64,000 bases of DNA from a bacterium (lineage in GTDB: Bacteria > UBA8248), in assembly GCA_965207065.1 (NCBI GenBank), contig OZ242260.1:2810017-2874016 (forward strand), written 5' to 3'. Of the stretch, positions 4,783 to 23,572 are shown in pieces. Position 1 is the first letter of the stretch. Every line of letters begins with the position of its first letter. Under the pieces are notes generated by a model. The model was not told the DNA's origin and searched no databases. It saw only the letters and a list, made by a program, of their open reading frames with translations. Position numbers and translations under genes: made by a program.

Positions 4783-5072
4783 TCGGCCTCCGCGAGGAGG
4801 CGGACGGCGTCAGCTTTGAGGTTCGGGTCCAGCCGCGTTCATCCAAAATGGAAATCACCGGAGTCCAGGACGGCGCCCTGCGGGTGCGGCTGACGGCGCC
4901 GCCCGTGGAAGGCGCCGCAAACATACAGTGCATCGAGTTGCTCTCCCGTAAAATGAAGGTTCCAAAACGCTCCATACGAATCGCCTCGGGCGCGAGAGCG
5001 CGCAGAAAGCGCCTGAAGGTCCTGGGACTGGGCATCGAAGAGGTGAGGGATATCCTGAGCGCCATGGCGTAG
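4779..5072 (+). CDS. DUF167 (YggU-like) protein
   Basis: 97-aa ORF with YggU-like sequence (GALRVRLTAPPVEGAAN); start overlaps divIVA stop. Confidence 0.65.
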   Translation: MIGLREEADGVSFEVRVQPRSSKMEITGVQDGALRVRLTAPPVEGAANIQCIELLSRKMKVPKRSIRIASGARARRKRLKVLGLGIEEVRDILSAMA

Positions 5073-5152
5073 AAGCCATGTGCCCGCGCAAAGCGATGAA
5101 TGAGAGAATCCGGATGGGCGGGAAAAAAGAGATTGAGGGAAATTTTCACACC

Positions 5153-6202
5153 ATGGCGTTTCGGGACGGCGCTCTCGTTCTTCTCGATCAGCGGAAACTT
5201 CCCCGAGAAGAGGTGTATCTCGAATACCGCACGGAAGACGATGTGGCCGAGGCCATCAAGACCATGGTGGTGCGCGGCGCGCCCGCCATCGGGATAGCGG
5301 CGGCTTATGGCATGGCCCTGGCCGCCGCCCGCCACGCGGGTTCAGGCGGCGATGCGCAGCGCGAGGCGCTCGAGCGGGCGGCCCGGGTGCTGGGCGACAC
5401 GCGCCCCACGGCGGTGAATCTCTTCTGGGCGATAGAAAAAATGATGGCGCACGTCGACCATAGCGACTCGGCGCCCGAAGGGCTGGCCGATGAACTCCTC
5501 CGCCTGGCGAGGGATATGCACGAGGAGGACGCCGCGATTTGCCGCCGGATAGGCGACCTGGGCGCTGAGTTGCTGCAGGAGGGGAGCAGCGTTCTCACCC
5601 ATTGCAACGCCGGCGCGCTTGCGACCGCAGGCTACGGCACGGCGGGCGGCGTGATTCGCAGCGGCTTTCGGGACGGACGGGTGCGGGAGGTTTTCGTGGA
5701 CGAGACCAGACCCTTCCTGCAGGGAGCGCGCCTCACCGCCTGGGAGTTGAGCCGCGACGGCATCCCCGTCGTGCTCATCACCGACAACATGGCCGCGCAT
5801 TGCATGAGCCTGGGAAGGATAGACGCGATTGTGGTAGGTGCGGACCGCGTGGCCGCGAACGGGGACGTCGCCAATAAAATCGGCACGTATGGCCTCGCGG
5901 TGCTCGCGAGAGAACACGGGGTGCCCTTTTACGTGGCGGCGCCGACGAGCACCGTCGACATGGAGGCGAAAAGCGGCGCGGACATTCCCATCGAAGAACG
6001 CCCCGAGGAGGAGGTTCGCTCCTTCGGCGGCCGGCCCGTCGCGCCGGAGGGGGTAAGCGTCTTCAACCCCGCTTTCGACGTGACGCCCGCGCGTTTCGTG
6101 GACGCCCTGGTGACGGAGCGGGGGGTAGTGCGCCTCGCGGAAGGGGAGTCTCTCGGCCTATACTACAAGATGTCAGGTTTGCCGTTTCAAAGCGAGATGT
6201 AG
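5153..6202 (+). CDS. mtnA: S-methyl-5-thioribose-1-phosphate isomerase (eIF-2B alpha/beta/delta family)
   Basis: MtnA-like sequence (LLDQRKLP, MVVRGAPAIGIAAAYG, ANKIGTYGLAVLA); start set to in-frame ATG 5153 after gaggga. Confidence 0.85.
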   Translation: MAFRDGALVLLDQRKLPREEVYLEYRTEDDVAEAIKTMVVRGAPAIGIAAAYGMALAAARHAGSGGDAQREALERAARVLGDTRPTAVNLFWAIEKMMAHVDHSDSAPEGLADELLRLARDMHEEDAAICRRIGDLGAELLQEGSSVLTHCNAGALATAGYGTAGGVIRSGFRDGRVREVFVDETRPFLQGARLTAWELSRDGIPVVLITDNMAAHCMSLGRIDAIVVGADRVAANGDVANKIGTYGLAVLAREHGVPFYVAAPTSTVDMEAKSGADIPIEERPEEEVRSFGGRPVAPEGVSVFNPAFDVTPARFVDALVTERGVVRLAEGESLGLYYKMSGLPFQSEM

Positions 6203-11968: not shown

Positions 11969-12865
11969 ATGAGAACACGCATGTTTTCCCCACGATTCCT
12001 CGTTTGTCTGCTCCTCACATGCTTCCTGGGCGTCACCGGCTCGTTCGTTCATGGACAGCAGGCCAGGAAGAAAATTTCCGGCTTCGACGGCGCTACGCTG
12101 GTGCACGTGCCCCCGGGCTGGTTCGTGATGGGCAGCAAACACGGCGACAAGGACGAGCGCCCGCCCCGGAAAATCTTCGTGCCGGGTTTCTGGATCGGCG
12201 AGACCGAGGCGACGGCGGAGCGCTTCGCGCGCTTCGTCTCCCAAACGGGCTACAAGACGACGGCCGAGAAGCGGAAATGGTCCTGGACCTGGGACGCTTC
12301 CTTGAGGAAGGGAAAGGGCGGCTGGCGAAAGACGAAGGATGCGAATTGGCGCCGGCCCGAAGGTCCGAAGTCGAACTGGAAAAGCGTTCCGAAACAACCC
12401 GTCTCGCACGTGAGCTGGCCCGACGCGGAAGCCTATTGCCAGTGGGCGGGCAGGCGCCTGCCGACCGAGGCGGAATGGGAGCACGCGGCGCGCGGGGGGG
12501 ACGGAAGACGCTACCCCTGGGGCAAGGCGCGCGACGCGATGAGAGCCAACCTGAAAGGGGGAAAGGACGGATTCCCCGGCGTCGCCCCCGTGGGCCGCTT
12601 TCCGAAAGGCGCGAGCCCGTTCGGGGCGCTCGACATGTCCGGCAACGTCTGGGAGTGGGTGGCCGACCGCTATGGATCGAGAGCCTATAAGAAAATGGCC
12701 GAGCGCGACCCGCACGGCCCTGCAAAAGGAAAAACCAGAGTCGTTCGCGGCGCGTCCTGGGGTAGTCCGGTCGCCTGGGCCACGGCGCACAACCGCTACC
12801 ACCGCCCGCCCGATTATACGAACAACAAGATCGGCTTTCGCTGCGCCACGGGTGAGGGTGGTTGA
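11969..12865 (+). CDS. formylglycine-generating enzyme family protein (FGE-sulfatase/SUMF1 domain), secreted
   Basis: N-terminal signal peptide; FGE motifs ([58 protein letters not shown]). Confidence 0.8.
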
Positions 12866-13054
12866 TAGGGCCTTCGCTGCATGGGAATGAGCGGCGGTGA
12901 GGGGATGAAAGCAAAGCTGCGCGTGCGAGAGGGCGAATATCATGGCCGGAGACGCACGACGCGATTGTCCATAAGCGGCAAACGCAGAATACACGCTGCA
13001 GATGGCTTGCGACTCGTCAGGAATAGAGCAGGAAAATCAGACTGAGCACCGTCT

Positions 13055-13315
13055 TTATTTCGACGTTCTTTCAATCAGGGCTTCCAGCGCTCTCATACTT
13101 TCTCGGTGACGGGCATCCAGAGCGGCCATAGTTTGCTCATGCCAGCGCTTGCTTTCCTCGTGCAGGCGCTGGCTTTGTTCTTCCCTTCTCTCTGTGCCGC
13201 GTTGCATCAGCCTCAGCCCGTACCAGATGAGCGCGCATTGTCCGACGCCCACGATGAGCGATATGAAGGCGTGAACTGCAGAAATCCAGAGCGTAAGTAT
13301 TTCGAATTCCGTCAT
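13055..13315 (-). CDS. small membrane protein, paralog A of a 3-member family
   Basis: 86 aa; one hydrophobic helix (LWISAVHAFISLIVGVGQCALIWYGL) then charged tail ending HRESMRALEALIERTSK. Confidence 0.55.
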   Translation of the reverse strand: MTEFEILTLWISAVHAFISLIVGVGQCALIWYGLRLMQRGTERREEQSQRLHEESKRWHEQTMAALDARHRESMRALEALIERTSK

Positions 13316-13540
13316 CTTTTCCTCTCCGCGGGTCTGGATTGGGAGTGGAGTAGTTTTTCAAATATGACGCACAGAGAAGGATAAATCAACGTCCGCCTTC
13401 GCTCGCATCATGTCATTCGTTCGGATTGCCCCGGAAGAATGGGTTGCGCCACCGGGATGATGGACTGACGCCGCGCGAGAGGCGCGTGCATCAAGAAAAT
13501 GCCGAGGGAAATCAGACGGAGCGCCGGTTTTTTTCTCCGC

Positions 13541-13792
13541 TCACTTCGACGTTCTCTCAATCAGGGCTTCCAGGGCTCTCATGCTTTCGCGGTGGCGGGT
13601 GTCCAGAGCGGCCATGGTTTCTTCATGCTGCTTGTCTCTGGCTGCCGAAGCGCGGCTCATCTGTTTCAGCCCATACAAAATGAGAAAACACTGAACGCTG
13701 CCCACGATGAGCGATATGAAGGCGTGAACTGCAGAAATCCAGAGGCCAATACGTGATAGTTCGAGCGTCGCTAATTCAAATTGCGTCATCAT
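13541..13792 (-). CDS. small membrane protein, paralog B (tandem duplicate of A)
   Basis: 83 aa; shares GLWISAVHAFISLIVG..QC and an identical C-terminal 17 aa with A; about 60 bp of upstream DNA also duplicated. Confidence 0.55.
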   Translation of the reverse strand: MMTQFELATLELSRIGLWISAVHAFISLIVGSVQCFLILYGLKQMSRASAARDKQHEETMAALDTRHRESMRALEALIERTSK

Positions 13793-13981
13793 TTCCTCTC
13801 CGCGGGTCTGAATTGGGAGTGGAGTAGCCTCTCGAATATGAAGGATGGTGGAGGATAAAGCAACTTTCGCCGTTGCTCGTATTACGATTATCGTTCTGGA
13901 TGTGCGACGGTCTTCATTTTGTGGAAATTCTTGCCGACCTATTCGTCGGGCGCAGGGTCGCCGCTATCTGAGCAAAAACCC

Positions 13982-14947
13982 TCAATTCGTCGGCGCGGGT
14001 GGCACGACGAGCACGCCGTGCGCCCCGTTTCCCACGCGGATTGTCCTGATGTTGCGGTGTGATTTCGCGTCCATCACGAACACTTCTTTCGAATCGCGGT
14101 TCGTCACGTAGGCGAGCGCGCCGTCGGGCGTGAAGGCGATGAGGTCGGGCCGTATGCCCTGCTTCACGCTGGCGACGCGCTTTTGCGAGGGAAGCGAGAA
14201 GACCGACACGCGGTTTTTGTGCGGGAGGGTGACGTAGAGGAACTTCCCGTCCGGCGTGATGAGGGTGTCGTGCGGCTCGCCGGAGAGTTTGATGGTGCGG
14301 ATGATTTCCAGGGTATCGAGGTCGACCACGCTGTAGGAGTTCCGCTCCCCGTTCATAACGTAGAGCCTTTTGCCGTCGGGCGTCACGTCGATTCCCTCGA
14401 TGTAGTGGCCCGCCTCGATTTGTTTGACGGGCTTTCTCGTATCGAGATCGACAACGGAGACGTCCTCGCTGAGCTCATTCGCCACGAAGGCCCGGCGGCC
14501 GTCGGGGCTCAGCTTGATGTTCACCGGGTTGTTGCCGCCGTGCTTGATGAGGCCGATGACCTTGCGCGCCGCGACGTCGAGGATCGTCACGTTGTCCGAA
14601 TATGTGTTCACGAAATAGGCGCGCTCGCCGTCGGGGGAGAACGCCAGGTTGTAGGGGTCGCGCCCCGCGCGTACGCGGCGGACGAACTTGAGCGTATGCG
14701 TGTCGAAAACGCGCACGAAGGCGCTGCCGTCGTTGATGACGTAAGCGTGGCGCCCGTCGGGCGCGAGGGAGAGACGGTTCGCCTTCCTGCCCGCGGGGAT
14801 CGTTGTGATGACCTCATGCGAATTGCGCGAGATGACGCTCAGCGTGCCGTCGCGCGTGTTCGTGACCAGAATCCGCTCGCCCGCCGCAAGCGCGCTGGCG
14901 GGAGCCAACAGCAGAAAAATGATGAGTGTGGTGACCGCTTTGTACAT
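13982..14947 (-). CDS. YVTN-family beta-propeller repeat protein, secreted
   Basis: Signal peptide (MYKAVTTLIIFLLLAPASALAAG) and repeated about 40-residue units with Y(V/F)(T/V)N cores (AYVIN, AYFVNT, LYVMN, LYVTL, AYVTN). Confidence 0.75.
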   Translation of the reverse strand: MYKAVTTLIIFLLLAPASALAAGERILVTNTRDGTLSVISRNSHEVITTIPAGRKANRLSLAPDGRHAYVINDGSAFVRVFDTHTLKFVRRVRAGRDPYNLAFSPDGERAYFVNTYSDNVTILDVAARKVIGLIKHGGNNPVNIKLSPDGRRAFVANELSEDVSVVDLDTRKPVKQIEAGHYIEGIDVTPDGKRLYVMNGERNSYSVVDLDTLEIIRTIKLSGEPHDTLITPDGKFLYVTLPHKNRVSVFSLPSQKRVASVKQGIRPDLIAFTPDGALAYVTNRDSKEVFVMDAKSHRNIRTIRVGNGAHGVLVVPPAPTN

Positions 14948-14958
14948 GATGGAGGAAC

Positions 14959-15396
14959 CTACCGGCCTTGTTGCTTCAAAAACGCCTCTTTCGCCCTGGG
15001 GTCGAAGCGGCAATTGCACATATTGCGGATCAGGGCCACCAAATCACGAATCTCTCGTTTTGTAAACACGTTGCCCCAGGGCGGCATGATGGGGGAGAGG
15101 TCGCTCGCCCCGCCCCCGTGGGTGATGGTGCGCACCATGTCCTCGTCCGAGAACTGGGCCATGTCCTTCCCGTCGGTGAGATTGCGGGGGCTCACGGGAA
15201 GCTTCTTGGTGTTGTTCACCCCCTTGCCGTCTCCCTTGGGGCCGTGGCACTGGATGCAGTACCAGCGGAAATTCTCCGCAGCGCTCACGCGGCTTGCGGA
15301 CTCCTCCGCGCCTGCAAGCAAGGGCGCGCCCGCCGCGACGGCGATGATGCAAGCGGATATGAACAATCCACCGATGAGACGTGATGAACGCTTCAT
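14959..15396 (-). CDS. c-type cytochrome (mono-heme)
   Basis: Signal peptide and one CxxCH heme-binding motif (CIQCHG). Confidence 0.8.
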   Translation of the reverse strand: MKRSSRLIGGLFISACIIAVAAGAPLLAGAEESASRVSAAENFRWYCIQCHGPKGDGKGVNNTKKLPVSPRNLTDGKDMAQFSDEDMVRTITHGGGASDLSPIMPPWGNVFTKREIRDLVALIRNMCNCRFDPRAKEAFLKQQGR

Positions 15397-16112
15397 TTGA
15401 AACTCGCGATATAGGCGGCGAGAGCGATGAAATCCTTCTCGCTCAGCCGGGTGAACGGCTTATCCCCGTACACCGGCATTCTGCCGTTGGGGTTGTAGCG
15501 CGCAGGTTTTTTGAGGAAAGCCACGATGAAATCGGGGTTCAGCCGGCGTCCCGCATCCTTGAAATGGGGCGCGCTGTGGCCGCCGACCTCAATTCGAGTC
15601 CGGTAGACCGTTTTTCGTATCGCGACCATATGGCACGAATAACACGGCTGTTTTTTCTGAAACAGTATCCTCGCGCGCCTGAGCACTTTTCTGGGGATTT
15701 TCTTCCATCGCGGAACGACGCCCACCGGCATTTGCGGGTCTTTTAAGCTCTCCAGATAGGCTGCGACCTTGGCCGCATCTTTTTCTGCAAGGACGGGATG
15801 CGGGTATTTCCCCCGCTTCATGGCGCCGTAGATGACGCCGCGAAAAGGTTCCGGCTTGGCCAGCCATTGCGCCAGAAAGCCGGGCCGGAACTTGCTGCCC
15901 GCATACCAGAGCGTGGGGCCTTTGATCCCGTGGCGTGCAGGCGGGGGGATCCTGTTTTCAGGGCCTTTGCGGGTGTGACAGCTTCCGCAGTTGTTATTCT
16001 GAAAGAGCGCCTTTCCCTCATCGAACTCCGCACCTTGCGAGGCAGTAGGCGCAAGCAGGAGAAAGCAAATTCCCGCGAACGCGAGGGGAAGCGTCTTGTT
16101 GATGCGTTTCAT
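15393..16112 (-). CDS. di-heme c-type cytochrome
   Basis: Signal peptide and two CxxCH motifs (CGSCH, CYSCH); 4-nt overlap with the downstream cytochrome gene. Confidence 0.8.
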   Translation of the reverse strand: MKRINKTLPLAFAGICFLLLAPTASQGAEFDEGKALFQNNNCGSCHTRKGPENRIPPPARHGIKGPTLWYAGSKFRPGFLAQWLAKPEPFRGVIYGAMKRGKYPHPVLAEKDAAKVAAYLESLKDPQMPVGVVPRWKKIPRKVLRRARILFQKKQPCYSCHMVAIRKTVYRTRIEVGGHSAPHFKDAGRRLNPDFIVAFLKKPARYNPNGRMPVYGDKPFTRLSEKDFIALAAYIASFK

Positions 16113-16187
16113 CCAGATAGTCTCGTAATCTTCTAGATAGTTTCGCTAGTCTCGGGCGGTCGCGTCGTGAAGTTTGCCGAAAAAGCC

Positions 16188-17258
16188 TTATTTCGGCAAC
16201 TCGGGGGCCTTGACTTCGGGGAGGTCGCCCGTGAGCGCGCCCATGAAGGCGATCAGGTCCGCTTTTTCGGTCTTCGTGAGCTTCAGGGGCTTCATGTCCG
16301 GGTCAAGATGGGGGTTCGGATGGCCACCTTCCTCATAGAAATCGACCACTTCCTCCAGCGTGGCGAAGCGGCCGTCGTGCATGTAGGGCGCTGTCTGGGT
16401 GATGTGGCGAAGCGTGGGCGTCTTGAACTTGCCCCGGTCCTTTATTTTCCGGGTGATTTTCTCCCTTCCAACCTGCAAAGGCTTCTTGTCCATCCCGACG
16501 CCTAAGTTGTGGAACTTGTCGTCCGTGAAGGGTGCGCTGAACTCATCCACCAGGTGGCATTTCACGCAATTGCCCTTTTTCATGAAAACCTCGAATCCCC
16601 TGATCGCCCGGGGCGATAGCGCTGACTCATCGCCTCCGTATTTCCAGCGGTCGAAGGGGGAATTTCCTGAGAGCAGGGTGCGCTCGAAGGTGGCGATGGC
16701 CTGAACCACGCGCTCGAGACTGACCCCGGGACTCCCGAATGCCTCATTGAACCGCGCGCGGTATTCGGGGATTGCGCCGAGCGTTTTGATAATCCTCGCC
16801 TCATTGGATGCCATTTCGCTCGGATGGAGGATGGGCCCCCTGGCCTGCTCCTCGAGGCTCGCGGCGCGCCCGTCCCAGAAGTGGGTTTCGTTGTAGGCGG
16901 CGTTGATGACCGTGGGGACGTTCCGGAGCGTGAGCCTGCCGTCAAAGCCCGTACCGTACTGGCGCGCATTCGAGAATCCGCGCCGGGGCATGTGGCAGGT
17001 CGCGCAGGAGACCTTCCCGTCGCCGGAGTAGCGTTTTTCGAAGTAGAGCATCTTGCCGAGTTCGATCTTGGGCCGCGTCATGGGGTTGTCATCGGGCACG
17101 GGAACGTCGTCGAGGCCCAGGGGAGGTTCCGGGGGGAGTTCCACTTGCGGGCGCCCATCCTGCGCGTGCGCCGGTGGCGCAGGCATCCACCCGAGCGCCG
17201 GGATCAGGAGACACAGCGCCGCGATCTGCGCGAGGTGATATATGGACTTTCTCTTCAA
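16188..17258 (-). CDS. di-heme cytochrome c peroxidase (CcpA/MauG family)
   Basis: Two heme motifs CATCH and CVKCH; CCP-family conserved stretches (FSGDGKVSCATCH, ETHFWDGRAASLEEQA, KTPTLR, APYMHDG). Confidence 0.85.
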   Translation of the reverse strand: MKRKSIYHLAQIAALCLLIPALGWMPAPPAHAQDGRPQVELPPEPPLGLDDVPVPDDNPMTRPKIELGKMLYFEKRYSGDGKVSCATCHMPRRGFSNARQYGTGFDGRLTLRNVPTVINAAYNETHFWDGRAASLEEQARGPILHPSEMASNEARIIKTLGAIPEYRARFNEAFGSPGVSLERVVQAIATFERTLLSGNSPFDRWKYGGDESALSPRAIRGFEVFMKKGNCVKCHLVDEFSAPFTDDKFHNLGVGMDKKPLQVGREKITRKIKDRGKFKTPTLRHITQTAPYMHDGRFATLEEVVDFYEEGGHPNPHLDPDMKPLKLTKTEKADLIAFMGALTGDLPEVKAPELPK

Positions 17259-17295
17259 GGCGGAGCACCGTCCAGGGTAGATAGGGCTCTCTGCA

Positions 17296-17688
17296 TTATG
17301 ACCTTTTCAGCAACTCGATGCTGACGCCATCGGGCGCCTCGATGAAGGCGATCTGCGTCGTCGGGTTGAATTGCACCGGTTCGACGGTGAATTTCACGCC
17401 TTTTCCCTTGAGGTCGTCGCAATAGGCCTGAAAATCGCCTGCGATCTGGAAGGCGAAATGATCCGTCCCCCATTCGAGGCCGCCCTTTTCGCCCGCGCTT
17501 TCGCCGGTTCTCTCCCCGCGGACGATGACCGTGGCGCCGTTGAATTTTACGGGGATCTGCGGCGCGCCCTTGAACACGCCGCCCTCTCCGCGCTCGCCGC
17601 CCAGGTTCTCGACGAACCAGTTCACGCTCGCCTCGGGGTCTTTGCTGATGACGTGCACGTGATCGAATACGATGCTGGCTGAACTCAT
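17296..17688 (-). CDS. VOC family (glyoxalase/bleomycin-resistance fold) protein
   Basis: 130-aa protein with VOC-like beta-alpha-beta-beta-beta pattern (HVHVISKD, HFAFQI). Confidence 0.65.
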   Translation of the reverse strand: MSSASIVFDHVHVISKDPEASVNWFVENLGGERGEGGVFKGAPQIPVKFNGATVIVRGERTGESAGEKGGLEWGTDHFAFQIAGDFQAYCDDLKGKGVKFTVEPVQFNPTTQIAFIEAPDGVSIELLKRS

Positions 17689-17772
17689 TTCTTATTTCTC
17701 CTTTCGCTTAACCGTCCCGAGCCGCGCGAGGAGAATCTCGCGCCCCGATTTTATCCGGCCGCTCTCTGTTGT

Positions 17773-18423
17773 TTAACCTTCCCAGGTGACGTCCCCGAAT
17801 TCATCAGGCGCAGGCCTTCCTGCGGCCCGGAATCCGGCGACTTCCGCCTTGCTCTGCGCGACGGTGCTGTTCGCCCCGTGGCCGGGGTAGAGAACGGTAT
17901 CGTCGGGCAGGGCGAAGACCTTGTTCTCGATGGAATCGAGCGACTTGAGCAATTGGTCGTGATTCCACGTTTTTCCGGGGCCGCCGGGGAAAATCGTATC
18001 CCCGCATACGCAGTGGCCCGGGTAGAGGAACATCAGCATACCCTTGCAGTGGCCGGGCGTGTGGATGGCCTTGAGGGTGATCTCGCCGAATGTGATCTCT
18101 TCGCCGTCCGCGATGGTGAAATCGGGGCTGATGCCGAACTCCCTGGCGTCCTCGGCGTGCTGGCCCAGGGGCGCGCCCGTGCGGCTTCGCACCTCATCGA
18201 GCGCGTCGATGTGGTCGCCGTGGCAATGGGTCTGTAGAATGTATTTGGGCGTGGCGCCTTCGCACGCGGCGAGAATCGGCTCGGCGGAATGAGAGGTGTC
18301 GATGATGACGCACTCTTTCGTCGCCTTGCACGTCAGCACGTACACGTTGTTGCTGTAGGGGCCGATGTTGAGTTTTTGGAAATCGAGTGCGGGAAGGTCC
18401 ACTCTCTGGTCGAATTCACCCAT
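17773..18423 (-). CDS. MBL-fold metallo-hydrolase
   Basis: Metallo-beta-lactamase motif HCHGDH and downstream His/Asp/Cys ligand positions. Confidence 0.8.
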   Translation of the reverse strand: MGEFDQRVDLPALDFQKLNIGPYSNNVYVLTCKATKECVIIDTSHSAEPILAACEGATPKYILQTHCHGDHIDALDEVRSRTGAPLGQHAEDAREFGISPDFTIADGEEITFGEITLKAIHTPGHCKGMLMFLYPGHCVCGDTIFPGGPGKTWNHDQLLKSLDSIENKVFALPDDTVLYPGHGANSTVAQSKAEVAGFRAAGRPAPDEFGDVTWEG

Positions 18424-18519
18424 GTCGTTTTCTCTCCTTTGTCTGATGAAGACCTGTGTTCATGAAGACGAGGTGACAGGAAACTTTACTGCCTTAACCG
18501 GGCGGACCACAACTGCAAG

Positions 18520-19206
18520 GTGAGAATTTTCGTGGACAAACCCTTCGTATACGCGAACCTGGCGATGACGCTCGACGGAAAAATCGCAGGCCGCGACCGC
18601 GCGGATTTCTCCCTGGGCTCCAAAGCGGATCGCCTGGAGATGGATCGACTGAGAGCCTGTGCGGACGTCGTGGTATGGGGCGGGCAGACGCTCAGGACGG
18701 CGCGGCATCCAGCACGGGTGCGCGAGGAATCCCTCGCCCGCGAGCGCGTGGAACGCGGCCTGCCACCGCACCCGGCGAACGCCGTGATCACGAAAAGCGG
18801 CGATTTCCCGAAAAATTTGCCGTGGTTTGCGAACGATGAGATTGAGCGGTACATATTCACCGCGCCTGAGGGTGCGCGCCGCTTAGAAGAAGCCCATACG
18901 GGAAACGCGCGAATCGTGGTTCTGGACGAGGCGGGATCCCTCCCTGAGCAGGTGCTGGCCTATTTTAGCGAGCGGGGGATGAAGCGCGTGCTTCTCGAGG
19001 GCGGGGGTTCCCTGGTATGGGAGTTCGCCCGGCATATCGATGCGTTTCACGTGACGCTCACACCATGGCTGGCGGGGGGCGCATCCGCACCGACGCTCAT
19101 GGACGGGCCGGGTTTTCCCTCGGGCGAGTTTCTTGGGCTCACGCTCGAGGAGGCACGCAGAGAAGGGGATGAGCTGTTCCTGCGCTACAAGGCGAAGACT
19201 GTGTGA
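18520..19206 (+). CDS. RibD C-terminal domain / dihydrofolate reductase family protein
   Basis: DHFR-like reductase pattern (ANLAMTLDGKIA, RVLLEGGGSL, HVTLTPWLAGG). Confidence 0.7.
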   Translation: MRIFVDKPFVYANLAMTLDGKIAGRDRADFSLGSKADRLEMDRLRACADVVVWGGQTLRTARHPARVREESLARERVERGLPPHPANAVITKSGDFPKNLPWFANDEIERYIFTAPEGARRLEEAHTGNARIVVLDEAGSLPEQVLAYFSERGMKRVLLEGGGSLVWEFARHIDAFHVTLTPWLAGGASAPTLMDGPGFPSGEFLGLTLEEARREGDELFLRYKAKTV

Positions 19207-19294
19207 TGGCCTGTCCACCGAGGGTGTTGAGAAAGTTCCTTTTCAGGGGATAGAGGGGACGCCCCGCTCGTCTTCCTTCTGCCTTGAAAACCAA

Positions 19295-19460
19295 CCCCCC
19301 CTACCCCCCCTTAACAGGGGGGCAAGAAAAAACAAAAGCTCCCCTACCGGCGGCGGGCGTCGCCTTTTTATACCCCCCTGACAAGGGGGGGTAGGGGGGG
19401 TTGCTTTTCAAGTCGGCGGCCGTCGTTTTACTCCCCTAACAAGGGGGTCGGGGGTTTTTT
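19295..19460. repeat. tandem C-run/G-run hairpin repeats (three units of about 60 bp)
   Basis: Three hairpins cccc-ttaaca-gggg, cccccc-tgacaa-gggggg, cccc-taacaa-gggg, each followed by a related ggcggcgggcgtcgcctttt-type segment. Confidence 0.5.
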
Positions 19461-19530
19461 GTAGGGGTCGCATATATGCGACCCGCCTTTTTCGCCGCCC
19501 GCCATGGGTCGCATGGTATGCGACCCCTAC
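19461..19530. repeat. REP-like inverted pair (gtaggggtcgcatatatgcgaccc / gggtcgcatggtatgcgacccctac)
   Basis: Two near-reverse-complement 24-bp units separated by about 21 bp; same GTAGGG...CCCTAC termini as the other REP-like copies. Confidence 0.5.
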
Positions 19531-19686
19531 ATAACCACCACGATCCGCAAGGGACTATTCCACCAGCCGCCCACCGCGCGGATTGAACCGCCACCGCGCC
19601 GTGTGGTACTCATGGAAGTCTAAAAATCATGTTCTCATGACATTCCAACGGTTGCATTGCGATGATGTCGCCGGGAGGAGGAAGCC

Positions 19687-20676
19687 GTGGCCACCAGGGC
19701 GAAGCGAAGATCGGCAAAACCGAAGAGGTTGACGAAAAAGGACTTGAACGCGATGTACCGCAACATGCTGCGCATCCGCCGCTTCGAGGAGAAGACGGAC
19801 GAGTTCTTCATGGCGGGCCGGGTAAAGGGGGCGGTTCACGTGAGCATCGGGCAGGAGGCGTGCTCGGTCGGCGTCTGCACGGCGCTGAACGATGAGGACG
19901 CCATCCTGACCACCCACCGGGGCCACGGGCACTCCATCGCCAAGGGCACCCGGATGCCCGAGATGATGGCCGAGTTGCTTGGCAAGTCCACCGGCCTCTG
20001 CAAGGCGCGCGGCGGCTCCATGCACATCGCCGACATCTCGAAGGGCCACTACGGCGCGCACTCCATCGTGGGGGCGAACATGCCGATGGCGACGGGCATG
20101 GGCCTCGCCTATCAACTGGAAGGCACGGGCCGCGTGGCGGTGGTCTTCTTCGGCGACGGCGCGTCGAACCAGGGCAGTTTTCATGAGTCGATGAACCTGT
20201 GCGCCATCTGGAAGCTGCCGGTCATCTTCTTCTGCGAGAACAACCACTACGCGGTGAGCTACCACGTGGAGCGCTCCACGGCGGTGAAGGACATCAGCGT
20301 GCGCGCGCAGGGCTACAACGCGCCCGGCGTAACGGTGGACGGCATGGACGTTGTGGCCGTCTACGAAGCGACCGCCGAGGCCGTGCGCAGGGCGCGCGAG
20401 GGCGGCGGCCCGAGCCTGATCGAGGCGAAGACCTACCGCTTCTTCGGCCACTCGCGCGGCGACCCCCAGTTCGGCCCCTACCGCACGAAGGAAGAGGTGG
20501 ACGAGTGGAGAAAGCGCGATCCGCTTACCATCGCGGCGAAGATGCTCAAAATGACGGAAGCGCAGAAAAAGGCGCACTTAAAAGCCGTGGACGATGAGTT
20601 GAACGGGGCTATCGACTTTGCGGAGCAAAGCCCGGAAGCGACGCTCGAATCCGCACTCGAGGACGTATACGCGTAA
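19687..20676 (+). CDS. TPP-dependent 2-oxoacid dehydrogenase E1 component, alpha subunit
   Basis: TPP-binding motif region (GDGASNQGSFHESMNLCAIWKLPVIFFCENNHYA); GTG start in track. Confidence 0.9.
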   Translation: MATRAKRRSAKPKRLTKKDLNAMYRNMLRIRRFEEKTDEFFMAGRVKGAVHVSIGQEACSVGVCTALNDEDAILTTHRGHGHSIAKGTRMPEMMAELLGKSTGLCKARGGSMHIADISKGHYGAHSIVGANMPMATGMGLAYQLEGTGRVAVVFFGDGASNQGSFHESMNLCAIWKLPVIFFCENNHYAVSYHVERSTAVKDISVRAQGYNAPGVTVDGMDVVAVYEATAEAVRRAREGGGPSLIEAKTYRFFGHSRGDPQFGPYRTKEEVDEWRKRDPLTIAAKMLKMTEAQKKAHLKAVDDELNGAIDFAEQSPEATLESALEDVYA

Positions 20677-20731
20677 AGAAACCCCATCCCCCGGCGCTGC
20701 GCGCCCGGTGAGAACCCTGGAGAGAGGCGAC

Positions 20732-21712
20732 ATGCGAGAGATTACTTTTGTGGATGCGTTGACCGAGGCCCATCACGAGGAGATGGAGCGCGATGAGCGC
20801 GTGATCGTCATGGGCGAGGACGTGGAGCTGGCCTACGTCTTCGGCGTCACGAAGGGGCTGGCCGAAAAATTCGGGCGCGACCGCGTGCGCGACACGCCCA
20901 TCAGCGAACTCGGCATCGTGGGCGCGGGCGTGGGCGCCGCCATGGCGGGCTACCGGCCCATCGTCGAGATCATGTTCATGGACTTCATCATGCTGGCGAT
21001 GGACCCGCTCATCAACCAGGCGGCGAAGCTGCGCTACATGCTGGGCGGGCAGTTGAGCGTGCCGCTCGTGGTGCGCACCCCGGGCGGCGGCGGCGTGCAG
21101 TACGGTCCCACGCACAGCCAGTGCCTGGAAGCCTGGTTCATGCAGATACCGGGCATCAAGGTGGCGGCGCCGAGCGACCCCGCCGACGCCAAGGGCCTCA
21201 TGTGCGCCGCGATTCGCGACGACAACCCCGTGCTCATGGTGGAGCACAAGATGCTCTACAAGATGAAGGGCCCCGTGCCCGAGGGCGAGCACGTGACACC
21301 TTTCGGGCAGGCCGCCGTGAAGCGAGAGGGCACGGACATCACCCTCATCGGCGTTGGCTACCAGGTGCACAACTGCCTGGCGGCGGCGGATGAACTCGCG
21401 AAAGAGGGGGTCAGCGCAGAAGTGGTCGACCCCAGGACGCTGGCCCCGCTCGATACCGGGACGCTCGCCGAATCGGTCCGCAAGACGAACCGCTGCATCA
21501 TCGTCGAGGAAGGGCACCTGAGGAGCGGCGTGGGTTCGGAGATATCCGCGGCCGTTCAGGAGGAAGCCTTCGACTACCTCGACGCCCCCATCGGCCGCGT
21601 GGCCGCCCTCGACGCGCCCATCCCCTTCGAGCCCCGCTTAGAAGATTTCGTGCTCCCCAACACGGCGAACGTCGTCGACGCCGCGAAGAAGGCGTTGGGG
21701 GTAAGTGTGTAG
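20732..21712 (+). CDS. 2-oxoacid dehydrogenase E1 component, beta subunit (transketolase-like)
   Basis: E1-beta pattern (MREITFVDALTEAHHEEMERDERVIVMGEDV); start set to in-frame ATG 20732. Confidence 0.9.
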   Translation: MREITFVDALTEAHHEEMERDERVIVMGEDVELAYVFGVTKGLAEKFGRDRVRDTPISELGIVGAGVGAAMAGYRPIVEIMFMDFIMLAMDPLINQAAKLRYMLGGQLSVPLVVRTPGGGGVQYGPTHSQCLEAWFMQIPGIKVAAPSDPADAKGLMCAAIRDDNPVLMVEHKMLYKMKGPVPEGEHVTPFGQAAVKREGTDITLIGVGYQVHNCLAAADELAKEGVSAEVVDPRTLAPLDTGTLAESVRKTNRCIIVEEGHLRSGVGSEISAAVQEEAFDYLDAPIGRVAALDAPIPFEPRLEDFVLPNTANVVDAAKKALGVSV

Positions 21713-21737
21713 GGGAAGGAGTGGGTTTGTTGATTTC

Positions 21738-21838
21738 GTAGGGGCGGACCTGTGTGTCCGCCCTGCGCGGGTGTCCATAGAGCCACCACGTCATCGAATC
21801 AAACGGTAAACCGGGCGGACACACAGGTCCGCCCCTAC
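21738..21838. repeat. MITE-like element: perfect 26-bp inverted repeats flanking about 49 bp
   Basis: gtaggggcggacctgtgtgtccgccc (21738-21763) and its exact reverse complement gggcggacacacaggtccgcccctac (21813-21838). Confidence 0.55.
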
Positions 21839-22171
21839 GGGTCAATCCCTCAGAAAATCCGTAACTGAATGGCGGCGGAAGCGGATACCCCTGCGGGGGG
21901 AATGACGAATACGCCCCGGACAGGTCGCGACCTGTCCCTACAATTCAAGAGAGACTGCCTATTCCTCGCTCCACGCCTTCTCGTACTTCGCCCGGTGCTC
22001 TTTTGGCAGCGGGGAGGCGAAATACGATATCCCGACGAAGAGCACCGTGTTCACCAGCAGGCCGAAGAAGCCCGGCAACGTCCCGTCTCGGTAAAACCAC
22101 GATCCGTGCAAACCCACACGCCCTTGCATGCGACCTGTTCATGGACTATATTCAGTCCACAGGAGGCGGCC

Positions 22172-22447
22172 ATGACCCTTTCGGACCGGATAAAACCCAT
22201 CAGTTACCTCAAGGCGCACGCCGCGGAAATCGTCCGCACGCTCGGGGAGCGGGGAGAACCCCTGGTGATCACCCAGAACGGGGAAGCCAAGGTGGTCATG
22301 CAGGACATCGACAGCTACGAGCAGATGCAGGAGACGCTCGCCCTGCTCAAGATTCTCGCCCTGGGCGACCGCCAGATTGAAGCCGGGCAGACGCAGCCCG
22401 CTGCCGATGTGACGGCGCGGCTCCGGGAGCGGCTCCCGGCCCGCTGA
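22172..22447 (+). CDS. type II antitoxin, Phd/YefM family
   Basis: About 91 aa (MTLSDRIKPISYLKAHAAEIVRTLGERGEPLVITQNGEAKVVMQDIDSYEQMQETL); aggagg RBS; stop overlaps toxin ATG (TGATG). Confidence 0.8.
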   Translation: MTLSDRIKPISYLKAHAAEIVRTLGERGEPLVITQNGEAKVVMQDIDSYEQMQETLALLKILALGDRQIEAGQTQPAADVTARLRERLPAR

Positions 22448-22773
22448 TGCCTTTCGCGGTTCACCTGACCGAGGACGCGGCGCGCGACCTGGAAGATATC
22501 TGCGAAACCATCGAACGGCGCGATTCACCCGCCGGCGCCGCCCATGTGCTCGACAGAATCGAAGAGGCGTTTACCGGCCTTTGCGAACATCCCCGGCGCG
22601 GCGCTTTCCCGAAGGAATTGCTGGATATCGGGATTCGCGAATACCGCGAGGTATTTTTCAAGCCCTACCGGATTATCTACCGGGTGCGGGAGGAGAGCGT
22701 ATATGTGCTCCTGATCGCCGACGGCAGGCGCGACATGCGGACGCTGCTGGAGCGGCGTTTGCTTTTGGCGTGA
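22447..22773 (+). CDS. type II toxin, RelE/ParE family
   Basis: 108 aa with ParE/RelE-like sequence (YRIIYRVREESVYVLLIADGRRD); translationally coupled to the Phd-like gene. Confidence 0.8.
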   Translation: MPFAVHLTEDAARDLEDICETIERRDSPAGAAHVLDRIEEAFTGLCEHPRRGAFPKELLDIGIREYREVFFKPYRIIYRVREESVYVLLIADGRRDMRTLLERRLLLA

Positions 22774-22941
22774 AACACGAACCGAGTGAATTTAAGAGTG
22801 TGCGCGTAGCCGGGCGGTTGAAGGGGAGGATGCCCGGCGAACCCTCCCTCATCGGTCGGGTTCGACTCTTTGACTTCCCGCGCGCCCTAGGCGAGACTGA
22901 TCGAACTGGCTGCTCCACGAGGACAGACCGGAAATAGCCGA

Positions 22942-23274
22942 ATGACGGAATACGAAGCCGCAAACCTTGCCGTGCAACAATCTGCCCTCGCCTTGCAACA
23001 AGCCGCGATATGGGTCGCCGCCGCCGTCGGGGCCGCGCAATGCAGCCTCATCGGAATTGGCCTCTACATCATGCGGCAGGCCTCGAAGCAACGCGACGCC
23101 CTGCACAGGGAAACCATAACGGCGCTGAACGCTCAGCGTGAGGCGCAAAGCGAACAGCACCGGGAAACCATGAAGGCGCTGGAAGGCCAACACAAGGCGC
23201 TGGAAAACCAGAGCGAAGCGCTCCGGGAACTCATCCGCCGTACGTCTGCGCCTTCGGCGCAGGAGGACGGTTGA
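22942..23274 (+). CDS. small membrane protein, paralog C of the 13055/13541 family
   Basis: 110 aa; shares ME(F/Y)E N-terminus, hydrophobic helix with conserved QC (AAVGAAQCSLIGIGL) and C-terminal HRETMKALE...LIRRTS. Confidence 0.5.
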   Translation: MTEYEAANLAVQQSALALQQAAIWVAAAVGAAQCSLIGIGLYIMRQASKQRDALHRETITALNAQREAQSEQHRETMKALEGQHKALENQSEALRELIRRTSAPSAQEDG

Positions 23275-23572
23275 AGTGAGAATCACCGCCTCCTCCGTCT
23301 TTTCTCTTTCCTTACCCTAGCTTCCAAGCGCGCGCATTTTTCGTGCAAAATGAAGAACTGCTTTGCGCGCACACGTGCGGAGGCGAAGCCGGTGCGGTGG
23401 TAGAGGATGTGTCAAAGGGAGCGGTTTTCGAGATGTTTGTTTCTGGTCTTGATGTCATGTATAATTTTCTCATCATCGGCAATTCATAAGATATTGTGGG
23501 TTTTGCGGCTCCTGCCGTGGACCGACAATTCAAGCCAGCGGGAATGCCCAATCTACAGAGGAGATTGGAGCA

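What the first reader, a model, noticed from the sequence alone, without database searches (positions are those of the whole stretch)
13055..13860. Tandemly duplicated small membrane-protein genes with a third paralog 9 kb away
ORFs of 86, 83 and 110 aa (13055-13315, 13541-13792 on minus; 22942-23274 on plus) share an ME(F/Y)E N-terminus, one hydrophobic helix with a conserved Gln-Cys, and a C-terminal HRE(S/T)M(R/K)ALE...LI(E/R)RTS motif. Paralogs A and B share an identical 17-aa C-terminus and about 60 bp of upstream DNA (ctccgcgggtctggattgggagtggagtag), so the duplication includes the regulatory region. One pair follows the cytochrome/YVTN operon; the third follows a Phd-ParE module. I do not recognise the family.
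Basis: seen in the sequence. Interest (0 to 1): 0.55.

Follow-up and report, generated by a model that had tools for sequence, protein, structure and literature searches.

The report
Unnamed family of modular membrane-helix proteins
The three small ORFs are real genes of a widespread but never-described family of single-pass membrane proteins, each one long helix built from a variable number of 7- and 11-residue modules; the genes multiply in tandem arrays in a marine-sponge symbiont and its relatives, and their function is still unknown.

Summary
ORFs A (13055-13315, -), B (13541-13792, -) and C (22942-23274, +) are paralogs, and they are the only three copies in the window. They are protein-coding: substitutions concentrate at codon position 3, and synonymous changes outnumber non-synonymous ones only in the sense frame.

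The family is large: 556 and 831 hits with two profiles, and 443 clusters at 50% identity. It matches no Pfam, NCBIfam, PHROG, PADLOC, PDB or Rfam entry, and I found no paper on it.

Each protein is predicted as one continuous helix, probably with the N-terminus outside the cell and the C-terminus inside. The layout is:
- a conserved N-cap, MTE[FY]ExA[ST]L;
- 0-4 heptads;
- a membrane segment with G-x-x-Q-C;
- a variable run of 7/11/18-residue modules, each carrying [RQ]-H-x-E-x-M;
- a conserved C-cap, AL..LI[ER]RT.

Gene copy number (2-4 in the A/B array) and module number (C is 110 or 124 aa) differ between genomes 93-98% identical in the flanks. Each copy in this lineage has its own promoter-like site. 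No neighbouring gene is conserved, and the Phd-ParE link is incidental.

Function is inferred only. My best guess is a self-associating, membrane-anchored helical rod of tunable length with a His/Met seam that may respond to metal or pH. Interest is moderate.

The parts
13055..13315 (-). Gene A, 86 aa, F-type family member (MTEFE...LIERTSK). It has no N-terminal heptad and carries one extra 11-residue module relative to B.
   Evidence: ORF. Paralogy. Family HMM E = 1e-27. AlphaFold2 predicts one helix over residues 3-85 with pLDDT 92.5. Coding signature.
13541..13792 (-). Gene B, 83 aa, F-type family member with one N-terminal heptad (ATLELSR).
   Evidence: ORF. Its sequence is identical to database protein P0001, which occurs on 18 contigs. 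HMM E = 2e-26.
22942..23274 (+). Gene C, 110 aa, Y-type family member (MTEYE...LIRRTSAPSAQEDG).
   Evidence: ORF. HMM E = 1e-44. AlphaFold2 predicts one helix over residues 3-101 with pLDDT 72. The orthologue is 110 aa in L003/L007/L008 and 124 aa in L001.
13316..13389 (-). Promoter-like site and leader of A: TTGATT (13389-13384), 17-nt spacer, CATATT (13366-13361), then a leader of about 40 nt holding CUCCaCUCC...GGAGaGGA, then ATG.
   Evidence: Read from the sequence. The same layout occurs in all 57 distinct upstream regions. The hairpin is no more stable than shuffled sequence, z = -1.2.
13793..13863 (-). Promoter-like site and leader of B: TTGCTT (13863-13858), 17-nt spacer, CATATT (13840-13835), then the leader.
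   Evidence: Hairpin z = +0.1, so it is not supported.
22870..22941 (+). Promoter-like site and leader of C: TTGACT (22870-22875), 17-nt spacer, GAGACT (22893-22898), then a leader with CUCCACGAGGAC. The ribosome-binding site reads GGAA here, where orthologues have GGAG.
   Evidence: Orthologous leaders fold with z = -2 to -3.7.
13030..13054 (-). Conserved 3' flank of A. It pairs with 13505-13534, the matching flank after B.
   Evidence: Direct repeat D4, 80% identity.
13505..13540 (-). 3' flank of B with a GCGGAG...CTCCG(T/C) hairpin followed by CTGATTTCC. This is a terminator-like site between array units.
   Evidence: conserved in every array unit of L001/L003/L006. It was not called by the strict terminator scan.

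Best explanation
A, B and C belong to an undescribed, widespread bacterial family of small single-pass membrane proteins.

**Shown**
- They are real coding genes under purifying selection.
- Each protein is predicted as a single uninterrupted helix made of five parts:
  1. an N-terminal cap, M-T-E-[FY]-E-x-A-[ST]-L;
  2. 0-4 copies of a 7-residue module;
  3. a hydrophobic segment with G-x-x-Q-C-x-L-I-x-x-G-L;
  4. a polar amphipathic helix made of a variable number of 7-, 11- and 18-residue modules, each carrying [RQ]-H-x-E-[TA]-M-x-A-L;
  5. a C-terminal cap, AL..LI[ER]RT[SA].
- Genes multiply by tandem duplication and by dispersal. Gene number and module number change between near-identical genomes.
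- In this lineage every copy has its own promoter-like site. No partner gene is conserved.

**Inferred**
- The N-terminus faces outward and the C-terminus faces the cytoplasm.
- The helices self-associate through the membrane-embedded Gln (and Cys) and through the amphipathic stripe. This would give a membrane-anchored rod whose length on both sides is set by module number.
- His and Met sit in that stripe alongside Leu and Ala. Association, or binding of a ligand, is therefore probably controlled by a metal ion or by pH.
- The two conserved caps would be the contact points for whatever the rod connects.
For: **Coding**
- Mean entropy at codon positions 1/2/3 is 0.57/0.45/0.98. Synonymous:non-synonymous is 3320:1559 in the sense frame and lower in every antisense frame.
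- A vs B gives 14 synonymous against 8 non-synonymous codon changes.

**Breadth**
- 556 proteins with the close profile and 831 with a distant profile.
- 443 clusters at 50% identity with E <= 1e-3, of which 136 have E <= 1e-10.

**Architecture**
- AlphaFold2 predicts a single helix for both A and C.
- The length of the N-terminal part is quantised at 22/29/36/43/50 residues.
- The module logo from 944 units is D-x-[RQ]-H-x-E(92%)-[TA]-M-x-A-L, and 309 of 315 members carry at least one H-x3-M.
- His and Met of the last module are nearly invariant even at 24% mean column identity.
- C-domain periodicity is about 100 degrees per residue, with His and Met in phase with the hydrophobic stripe.

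**Topology**
- 262 of 262 members have more Lys+Arg in the 15 residues after the hydrophobic segment than before it (3.8 vs 0.5).

**Dynamics**
- The A/B array has 2, 3, 3 or 4 copies in genomes 93-98% identical in the flanks.
- The C orthologue gains one heptad on each side of the membrane in L001.
- Arrays of 2, 3 and 6+1 copies occur in distant relatives.

**Autonomy**
- TTGxxx-N17-hexamer lies 66-79 nt before the ATG in 57 of 57 distinct upstream regions.
- Neighbours are unrelated metabolic genes.
Against: - No experiment and no expression data support any function.
- Oligomerisation was not modelled. Only monomers could be predicted.
- A periodicity of 3.6 residues per turn with high Glu/Arg/Gln content also fits a stable single alpha-helix spacer rather than a coiled coil.
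- A cytoplasmic location is not the typical setting for His/Met metal sites, which are mostly periplasmic.
- The H-x3-M spacing differs from the HxxM/MxxH motifs of known silver/copper binders.
- No metal-related neighbour gene recurs.
- The topology rests on the positive-inside rule alone.
Confidence: 0.4

Rival explanations
1. Membrane-damaging small toxins of the type I toxin-antitoxin or holin kind. A small hydrophobic peptide is kept silent by a structured leader and an antisense RNA, and forms pores when made.
For: - Tandem arrays whose copy number varies between strains.
- Every copy has its own promoter-like site.
- Y-type leaders can pair an anti-Shine-Dalgarno CUCC or CCCAC with the ribosome-binding site, z = -2 to -3.7.
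- The membrane segment is rich in small and polar residues.
- One copy sits beside a Phd-ParE module.
Against: - The proteins are 73-227 aa with a conserved polar domain of 40-180 residues, unlike the usual toxins of under 60 aa.
- No antisense promoter was found in the unit.
- The antisense ORFs are non-coding.
- Distant arrays have only 68-nt spacers, which leaves no room for an antitoxin RNA gene.
- Leader hairpins of A and B are no better than shuffled sequence, and the stems show no covariation.
- There are no hits in phage, plasmid or viral collections and no PADLOC or PHROG family.
Confidence: 0.07
2. Passive spacers or tethers. The variable region is a stable single alpha-helix or coiled-coil ruler. 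The function lies in the two conserved caps, which bind a partner protein on each side of the inner membrane, for example a sensor, a transporter or an envelope component. His and Met would be structural, not ligand-binding.
For: - Both ends are conserved while both spacer lengths are quantised and variable.
- The Glu/Arg/Gln-rich composition and 3.6-residue periodicity fit a straight helix.
- Many known bacterial small membrane proteins act by binding larger membrane proteins (my own background knowledge, not tested here).
Against: - No partner gene co-occurs.
- His, Glu and Met inside the modules are as conserved as the caps, which a pure spacer would not need.
- Ten or more paralogs per genome is unusual for a dedicated adaptor.
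Confidence: 0.25
3. Stress-induced membrane protectants whose translation is switched on by heat through an RNA-thermometer-like leader. This would be analogous to small heat-shock or phage-shock proteins.
For: - Short leaders of 35-45 nt have three different ways of pairing with the ribosome-binding site: CUCCA/UGGAG, CCCAC/GUGGG and UCCaCUCC/GGAGaGGA.
- The predicted energies of -7 to -16 kcal/mol are in the range I recall for known RNA thermometers (my own recollection, not tested here; energies).
- The architecture resembles PspB (my own recollection, not tested here).
Against: - No Rfam thermometer family matches.
- The stems are invariant within groups, so there is no compensatory evidence.
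- The A and B hairpins do not differ from shuffled sequence.
- Distant relatives lack this leader (L055).
Confidence: 0.1
4. Non-functional ORFs inside a repeated non-coding element.
For: The units are repeated, they lie in intergenic DNA, and long ORFs are also open on the antisense strand.
Against: - The codon-position and synonymous/non-synonymous signatures favour the sense frame only.
- All indels are multiples of 3, and in fact of 21 or 33 nt.
- Reading frame, start and caps are conserved in 443 clusters at 50% identity, and in MAGs labelled Nitrospinae/Nitrospinota, Deltaproteobacteria and Thermodesulfobacteriota.
Confidence: 0.02

Closest known systems
Borrelia Bdr (Borrelia direct repeat) proteins (features recalled from memory)
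   Same: A multicopy paralogous family of small helical inner-membrane-anchored proteins. Members differ mainly in the number of short (11-residue) repeat modules. The function of that family is also poorly understood.
   Different: - Bdr proteins are anchored by a C-terminal segment, whereas these have it near the N-terminus.
- Bdr genes lie on spirochaete plasmids, whereas these are chromosomal in uncultured marine lineages.
- There is no sequence similarity: no Pfam hit of any kind.
- This family has variable modules on both sides of the membrane and a His/Met motif.
Small bitopic inner-membrane proteins with a cytoplasmic coiled coil: PspB (PF06667) and YhcB/ZapG (DUF1043)
   Same: Size of 70-130 aa, an N-terminal membrane segment with the N-terminus outside, and a cytoplasmic amphipathic helix.
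   Different: - Those are single-copy genes with fixed length, in defined operons or functions.
- There is no profile match.
- They have no modular repeats, no H-x3-M motif and no intramembrane Gln-Cys.
SilE/PcoE periplasmic silver/copper-binding proteins
   Same: Repeated His...Met pairs on helices, within an otherwise polar sequence rich in Gln, Glu and Arg.
   Different: - SilE and PcoE are secreted soluble proteins with HxxM/MxxH spacing (i, i+3).
- Here the spacing is strictly i, i+4 (221 of 258 His-to-Met pairs), the domain is predicted cytoplasmic, and it is membrane-anchored.
- There is no homology.
Type I toxin repeat arrays of E. coli (Ldr/Rdl long direct repeats, Ibs/Sib)
   Same: Repeat units of about 0.5 kb, each with its own promoter and a small membrane-protein gene. 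The units are tandemly arrayed, with an extra copy elsewhere, and copy number varies between strains.
   Different: - Those toxins are 18-35 aa and each unit encodes an antisense RNA.
- These proteins are 73-227 aa with a conserved polar domain, and no antisense gene is detectable.
Pfam DUF6479
   Same: Seven of 28 distant family members give weak matches over the membrane segment.
   Different: The best E-value is 0.0067 and the one score printed (13.8 bits, P0155) is far below the 25.4-bit cut-off. Only the hydrophobic segment matches. This is not evidence of membership.

Membership tests
Any curated protein family (Pfam-A, NCBIfam, PHROGs, PADLOC) or solved structure | Profile match at or above the curated threshold | tested here: not met
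   There were no significant hits for A, B, C, two long relatives or 28 distant members. A PDB profile search gave a best E-value of 0.47.
Type I toxin-antitoxin (Ldr/Rdl-like) | Toxin is a very small (under about 60 aa), mostly hydrophobic peptide | tested here: not met
   The window proteins are 83-110 aa and the family spans 73-227 aa. More than half of each protein is a conserved polar helix.
Type I toxin-antitoxin (Ldr/Rdl-like) | Cis-encoded antisense RNA gene overlapping the toxin mRNA | tested here: inconclusive
   No antisense promoter-like site lies in 12850-14050, and spacers of 68 nt in the distant arrays leave no room for one. Transcription itself cannot be tested here.
Type I toxin-antitoxin (Ldr/Rdl-like) | Tandem repeat units with strain-variable copy number | tested here: met
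   The array has 2, 3, 3 and 4 units in the window, L001, L003 and L006.
Type I toxin-antitoxin (Ldr/Rdl-like) | Toxicity on overexpression | not testable with these tools
   This needs an experiment.
Borrelia Bdr family | C-terminal membrane anchor and sequence similarity to Bdr | tested here: not met
   The hydrophobic segment lies at residues 4-40, near the N-terminus. No profile match to any Pfam family was found.
Borrelia Bdr family | Paralogs differ by the number of short repeat modules | tested here: met
   Modules of 7, 11 and 18 residues account for the differences. N-terminal lengths are 22/29/36/43/50 residues and C-domain lengths are 41-179 residues. This is an analogy only.
SilE/PcoE-type His/Met metal binders | Repeated HxxM/MxxH motifs in a secreted protein | tested here: not met
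   The His-to-Met spacing is i+4, not i+3. The N-terminus is acidic with no signal-peptide-like region, and the domain is predicted cytoplasmic.
SilE/PcoE-type His/Met metal binders | Binds Cu(I)/Ag(I) | not testable with these tools
   This needs titration of a purified peptide.
RNA thermometer (ROSE, fourU and similar) | Match to a curated RNA family | tested here: not met
   An Rfam search of 12000-24000 at E <= 1 found nothing in the leaders.
RNA thermometer (ROSE, fourU and similar) | Conserved hairpin that occludes the Shine-Dalgarno sequence | tested here: inconclusive
   Three different anti-Shine-Dalgarno solutions exist. The stems are invariant within groups. The z-score is -2 to -3.7 for Y-type leaders but -1.2 and +0.1 for A and B.

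The most novel reading that the evidence does not exclude
The family is a new class of length-tunable transmembrane helical rods. Homo- or hetero-oligomers of co-expressed paralogs would form a continuous bundle across the inner membrane. A ring of Gln/Cys inside the bilayer and a cytoplasmic His/Met seam would bind or conduct a metal ion, or sense pH. Rapid gain and loss of 7/11-residue modules and of whole genes would adapt the bundle to life inside marine sponges.
Probability: 0.12. Interest if true: 0.75.

Novelty: new variant of a known kind. Interest (0 to 1): 0.45.

Why it matters
- It defines a sizeable protein family (hundreds of clusters, up to ten or more genes per genome) that no database names. 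It gives clear diagnostic motifs that could seed a new family model.
- The strictly quantised, fast-changing module numbers on both sides of the membrane make it a natural system for studying how repeat-built helical proteins evolve.
- It may also help in studying how helix length matters at a membrane.
- The window genome is about 95% identical to a Nitrospinae bin from the sponge Aplysina aerophoba. The few named relatives (Nitrospinae/Nitrospinota, Deltaproteobacteria and Thermodesulfobacteriota MAGs) are uncultured. The family is therefore also a candidate niche-specific factor for these symbionts.
- None of this is yet tied to a function.

Tried and rejected
- **Family libraries.** Pfam, NCBIfam, PHROGs, PADLOC and PDB sequence profiles gave no credible match. 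Weak DUF6479, HemX-like and coiled-coil hits were rejected as compositional or membrane-segment-only.
- **RNA families.** Rfam found nothing in the leaders.
- **Mobile or viral origin.** No relatives turned up in IMG/VR, phage or plasmid collections.
- **Conserved partner gene.** Clustering the flanking ORFs of 48 loci gave only synteny groups of unrelated metabolic genes. Distant loci were likewise uninformative.
- **Link to Phd-ParE or the cytochrome/YVTN operon.** Rejected, because Phd-ParE is missing in a 98%-identical genome.
- **Antisense ORFs as the real genes.** Rejected by the codon-position and synonymous/non-synonymous tests.
- **Leader hairpin as a proven regulatory structure.** Not established. 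There is no covariation and the z-scores are mixed.
- **Recent intragenic tandem duplication in the window genes.** Tandem Repeats Finder found none.
- **Fold search.** Not run, because a single-helix model gives meaningless matches.
- **Literature.** Searches for the motif strings found nothing relevant.
- **First genome-collection scan.** The mixed alignment failed for lack of a conserved stretch. I repeated the scan with the Y-type alignment only, so F-type and distant copies are undercounted there.

Full report
**1. Observation**

The three ORFs are present as described: A 13055-13315 (-, 86 aa), B 13541-13792 (-, 83 aa) and C 22942-23274 (+, 110 aa).

- A and B share 76% identity over aligned columns. 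C shares 43% with A.
- tblastn against the window gives 1e-28 for A/B, 8e-13 for B/C and 1.5e-8 for A/C. Nothing else is credible.
- A family HMM finds exactly these three copies in the 64 kb.
- The A/B duplication is a 474-486-bp unit. Similarity spans 13030-13422 and 13505-13896. It includes 134 nt upstream of the start codons at 78% identity, with a near-identical core of about 45 nt, and about 30 nt after the stop codons.
- The two coding indels between A and B are 21 nt and 33 nt, which is one heptad and one 11-residue unit.

**2. These are genes, not chance ORFs**

- Between A and B, 58 aligned codons differ at positions 1/2/3 by 4/7/16. There are 14 synonymous and 8 non-synonymous codon changes.
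- Across 51 distinct family sequences, mean entropy per codon position is 0.57/0.45/0.98.
- Synonymous:non-synonymous is 3320:1559 in the sense frame. In the three antisense frames it is 1185:3694, 2372:2634 and 633:4423.
- The long antisense ORFs (13106-13384, 13499-13756, 22849-23286) are therefore by-products of the sense genes.

**3. Size and spread of the family**

- A profile of the three proteins finds 556 proteins at E <= 0.01, none with a Pfam domain.
- An exhaustive HMMER scan of 1.84 billion cluster representatives finds 443 clusters at E <= 1e-3, of which 136 have E <= 1e-10.
- A profile of distant members finds 831 proteins.
- The few named hits are hypothetical proteins of 'Nitrospinae/Nitrospinota bacterium' and 'Deltaproteobacteria bacterium' MAGs. 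One locus (L055) is from a Thermodesulfobacteriota MAG.
- Locus L004 is contig MPNJ01000001 of GCA_002238965.1. Accession MPNJ00000000 is bin107, classified as Nitrospinae, from the sponge Aplysina aerophoba: 4.9 Mb, 59.5% GC (PMC5649159).
- L001, which shows the same gene layout as L004 in this region, is about 95% identical to the window. The window has 58.2% GC. The window therefore comes from a close relative of that symbiont.
- No relatives were found in IMG/VR, phage or plasmid collections.
- There is no match in Pfam, NCBIfam, PHROGs, PADLOC, PDB sequences or Rfam. A search for the motif strings found no paper.

**4. Anatomy of the protein**

There are two subfamilies:
- F-type: MTEFE...LIERTSK, which includes A and B.
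- Y-type: MTEYE...LIRRTSAPxxxDG, which includes C.

Distant relatives keep the same plan. From N- to C-terminus:

1. N-cap M-T-E-[YF]-E-x-A-[ST]-L.
2. Zero to four heptads, ALQQASL-like in Y-type and LEISRIG-like in F-type. The distance from the start to the G-x-x-Q motif is strictly 22, 29, 36, 43 or 50 residues.
3. A hydrophobic segment with G(100%)-x-x-Q(96%)-C(75%)-x-L-I-x-x-G-L.
4. A basic juxtamembrane stretch.
5. A polar helix built from modules of 7 residues (QHRENMA), 11 residues (QHRETMKALDS) and 18 residues (an 11-residue unit plus REAQSEQ).
   - The logo from 944 units is D-x-[RQ]-H-x-E(92%)-[TA]-M-x-A(71%)-L(58%).
   - 309 of 315 members carry at least one H-x3-M.
   - His-to-Met spacing is i+4 in 221 of 258 His-to-Met pairs counted at spacings 1-7.
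6. C-cap AL..LI[ER]RT[SA](P).

Other structural points:
- Family members range from 73 to 227 aa, and all of that variation is in module number.
- AlphaFold2 predicts one uninterrupted helix for C (residues 3-101, pLDDT 72) and for A (residues 3-85, pLDDT 92.5).
- The C-domain is amphipathic with a period of about 100 degrees per residue, or 3.6 residues per turn. This matches 7+11=18 residues in five turns. His and Met are in phase with Leu, Ile and Val.
- In 262 of 262 members the 15 residues after the hydrophobic segment hold more Lys+Arg than the 15 before it (3.8 vs 0.5), and the N-tail is acidic. By the positive-inside rule, the N-terminus is outside and the repeat domain is cytoplasmic. 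This is an inference.

**5. Genome dynamics**

- Four genomes that are 93-98% identical to the window in the flanks carry the A/B array between the same YVTN and FGE-sulfatase genes.
- The window has 2 units (83, 86 aa). L001 has 3. L003 has 3. L006 has 4. Some units are mosaics.
- The C orthologue is 110 aa in the window, L003, L007 and L008. It is 124 aa in L001, with one heptad added on each side of the membrane.
- One related chromosome (OZ244799.1) has at least nine dispersed Y-type loci. Another contig (CBDBEV010000001.1) has at least seven.
- One Y-type locus is syntenic across 11 species-level genomes, so some copies are old.
- Distant relatives also form arrays: six in tandem plus one nearby in L058 with 68-nt spacers, three in L056 and two in L057.

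**6. Context and regulation**

- No neighbour gene recurs. Flanks encode unrelated enzymes, including RidA, YqeY, cupin, an aconitase subunit, SnoaL-like protein, glycine reductase, nitrile hydratase and capsule genes.
- The Phd-ParE module beside C is absent in L007, whose flank is 98% identical. An SSF transporter sits there instead.
- All 57 distinct upstream regions have a TTGxxx hexamer 66-79 nt before the ATG. After 17 nt comes GA[AG]ACT, CATATT or TAGAGT.
- In the window these sites are:
  - A: 13389-13384 and 13366-13361.
  - B: 13863-13858 and 13840-13835.
  - C: 22870-22875 and 22893-22898.
- Similarity between non-orthologous copies extends about 30 nt further upstream into a C-rich box.
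- The leaders of 35-45 nt offer three different pairings with the ribosome-binding site. These stems are invariant within groups, so there is no covariation.
- The leaders are more stable than shuffled sequence only for Y-type copies (z = -2 to -3.7). For A and B they are not (z = -1.2 and +0.1).
- I treat translational occlusion as a lead, not a finding.
- The ribosome-binding site of C reads GGAA in the window and GGAG in its orthologues.

**7. How it probably works**

Shown: a coding, conserved, modular single-helix membrane protein that evolves fast in copy number and module number, in stand-alone units.

Inferred, at about 0.4 overall:
- The helices self-associate. A Gln inside a membrane helix is a strong association driver (established knowledge). 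The small-residue pattern G-x3-C-x3-G in Y-type favours tight packing. The amphipathic stripe continues on both sides of the membrane.
- The result would be a membrane-anchored rod whose length on each side is set in steps of about 1 nm.
- His and Met are as conserved as the Leu positions and lie in the stripe. This points to a ligand- or pH-controlled interface rather than a purely structural core.

Rivals:
- A passive spacer or adaptor whose caps bind partners (0.25).
- A heat- or stress-switched membrane protectant (0.1).
- A type I-toxin or holin-like pore former (0.07).
- Non-coding repeats (0.02, effectively refuted).

**8. Comparison with known systems, and novelty**

- The closest analogies are Borrelia Bdr proteins (a multicopy family with variable 11-residue repeats, but tail-anchored), PspB/YhcB-type small bitopic coiled-coil proteins, SilE/PcoE His/Met binders, and the Ldr/Ibs repeat arrays.
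- In each case a defining feature was tested and not met, as listed in the membership table. I file the family under none of them.
- It is an undescribed family with a recognisable general architecture, so I rate it a new variant of a known kind.
- Interest is moderate (0.45). The modular quantisation and the breadth of an unnamed family are notable, but no function is established.

Noticed in passing
window 21737-21843 (+): A very long, near-perfect hairpin with a stem of about 27 bp (GUAGGGGCGGACCUGUGUGUCCGCCC / GGGCGGACACACAGGUCCGCCCCUAC). Its MFE is -81.8 kcal/mol and z = -8.3. It lies just upstream of the Phd-ParE module. Rfam gives only sub-threshold miRNA-like hits. Similar 'gtaggg...cctgtcc' palindromes lie downstream of family copies in L039, L040 and L052.
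   Followed up: partly
window 19270-19530: An intergenic region packed with short C-run/G-run palindromes, such as CCCCCCCtaCCCCCCCttaacaGGGGGG and GGGGTCGCATATATGCGACCC. These look like REP-type repeats. The same 'aaaaccaaccccccctaccccccc' motif occurs downstream of family copies in L027, L038, L046 and L048.
   Followed up: partly
window 22838-22864 (+): The hairpin CGAACCC-N13-GGGTTCG lies immediately upstream of the -35 hexamer of gene C. Related 'ccctcc...ggtcgggttcga' sequences precede non-orthologous copies (L026, L047), so part of the upstream flank seems to travel with the gene.
   Followed up: partly
window 21869-22773 (+), compared with L007: The Phd-ParE toxin-antitoxin pair is a strain-variable insertion. 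In L007, whose flanks are 98% identical, an SSF-family transporter and a 62-aa ORF occupy the site.
   Followed up: partly
window 13106-13384 (+), 13499-13756 (+), 22849-23286 (-): Long ORFs are open antisense to all three family genes, and to most relatives. The codon-position and synonymous/non-synonymous tests show that they are not the coding frames.
   Followed up: yes
window 22929-22934 (+): Gene C has GGAAAT where all orthologues have the Shine-Dalgarno GGAGAT or GGAGAG. This may weaken translation of this copy.
   Followed up: no
L058 2770-5315 and 7337-7708: A distant relative carries six family genes in tandem with 68-nt spacers, plus a seventh 2 kb away. They sit inside a capsule/glycosyltransferase cluster. 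The stop codon of the last tandem gene (5001-5315) overlaps the start of a 630-aa protein that has no Pfam domain.
   Followed up: partly
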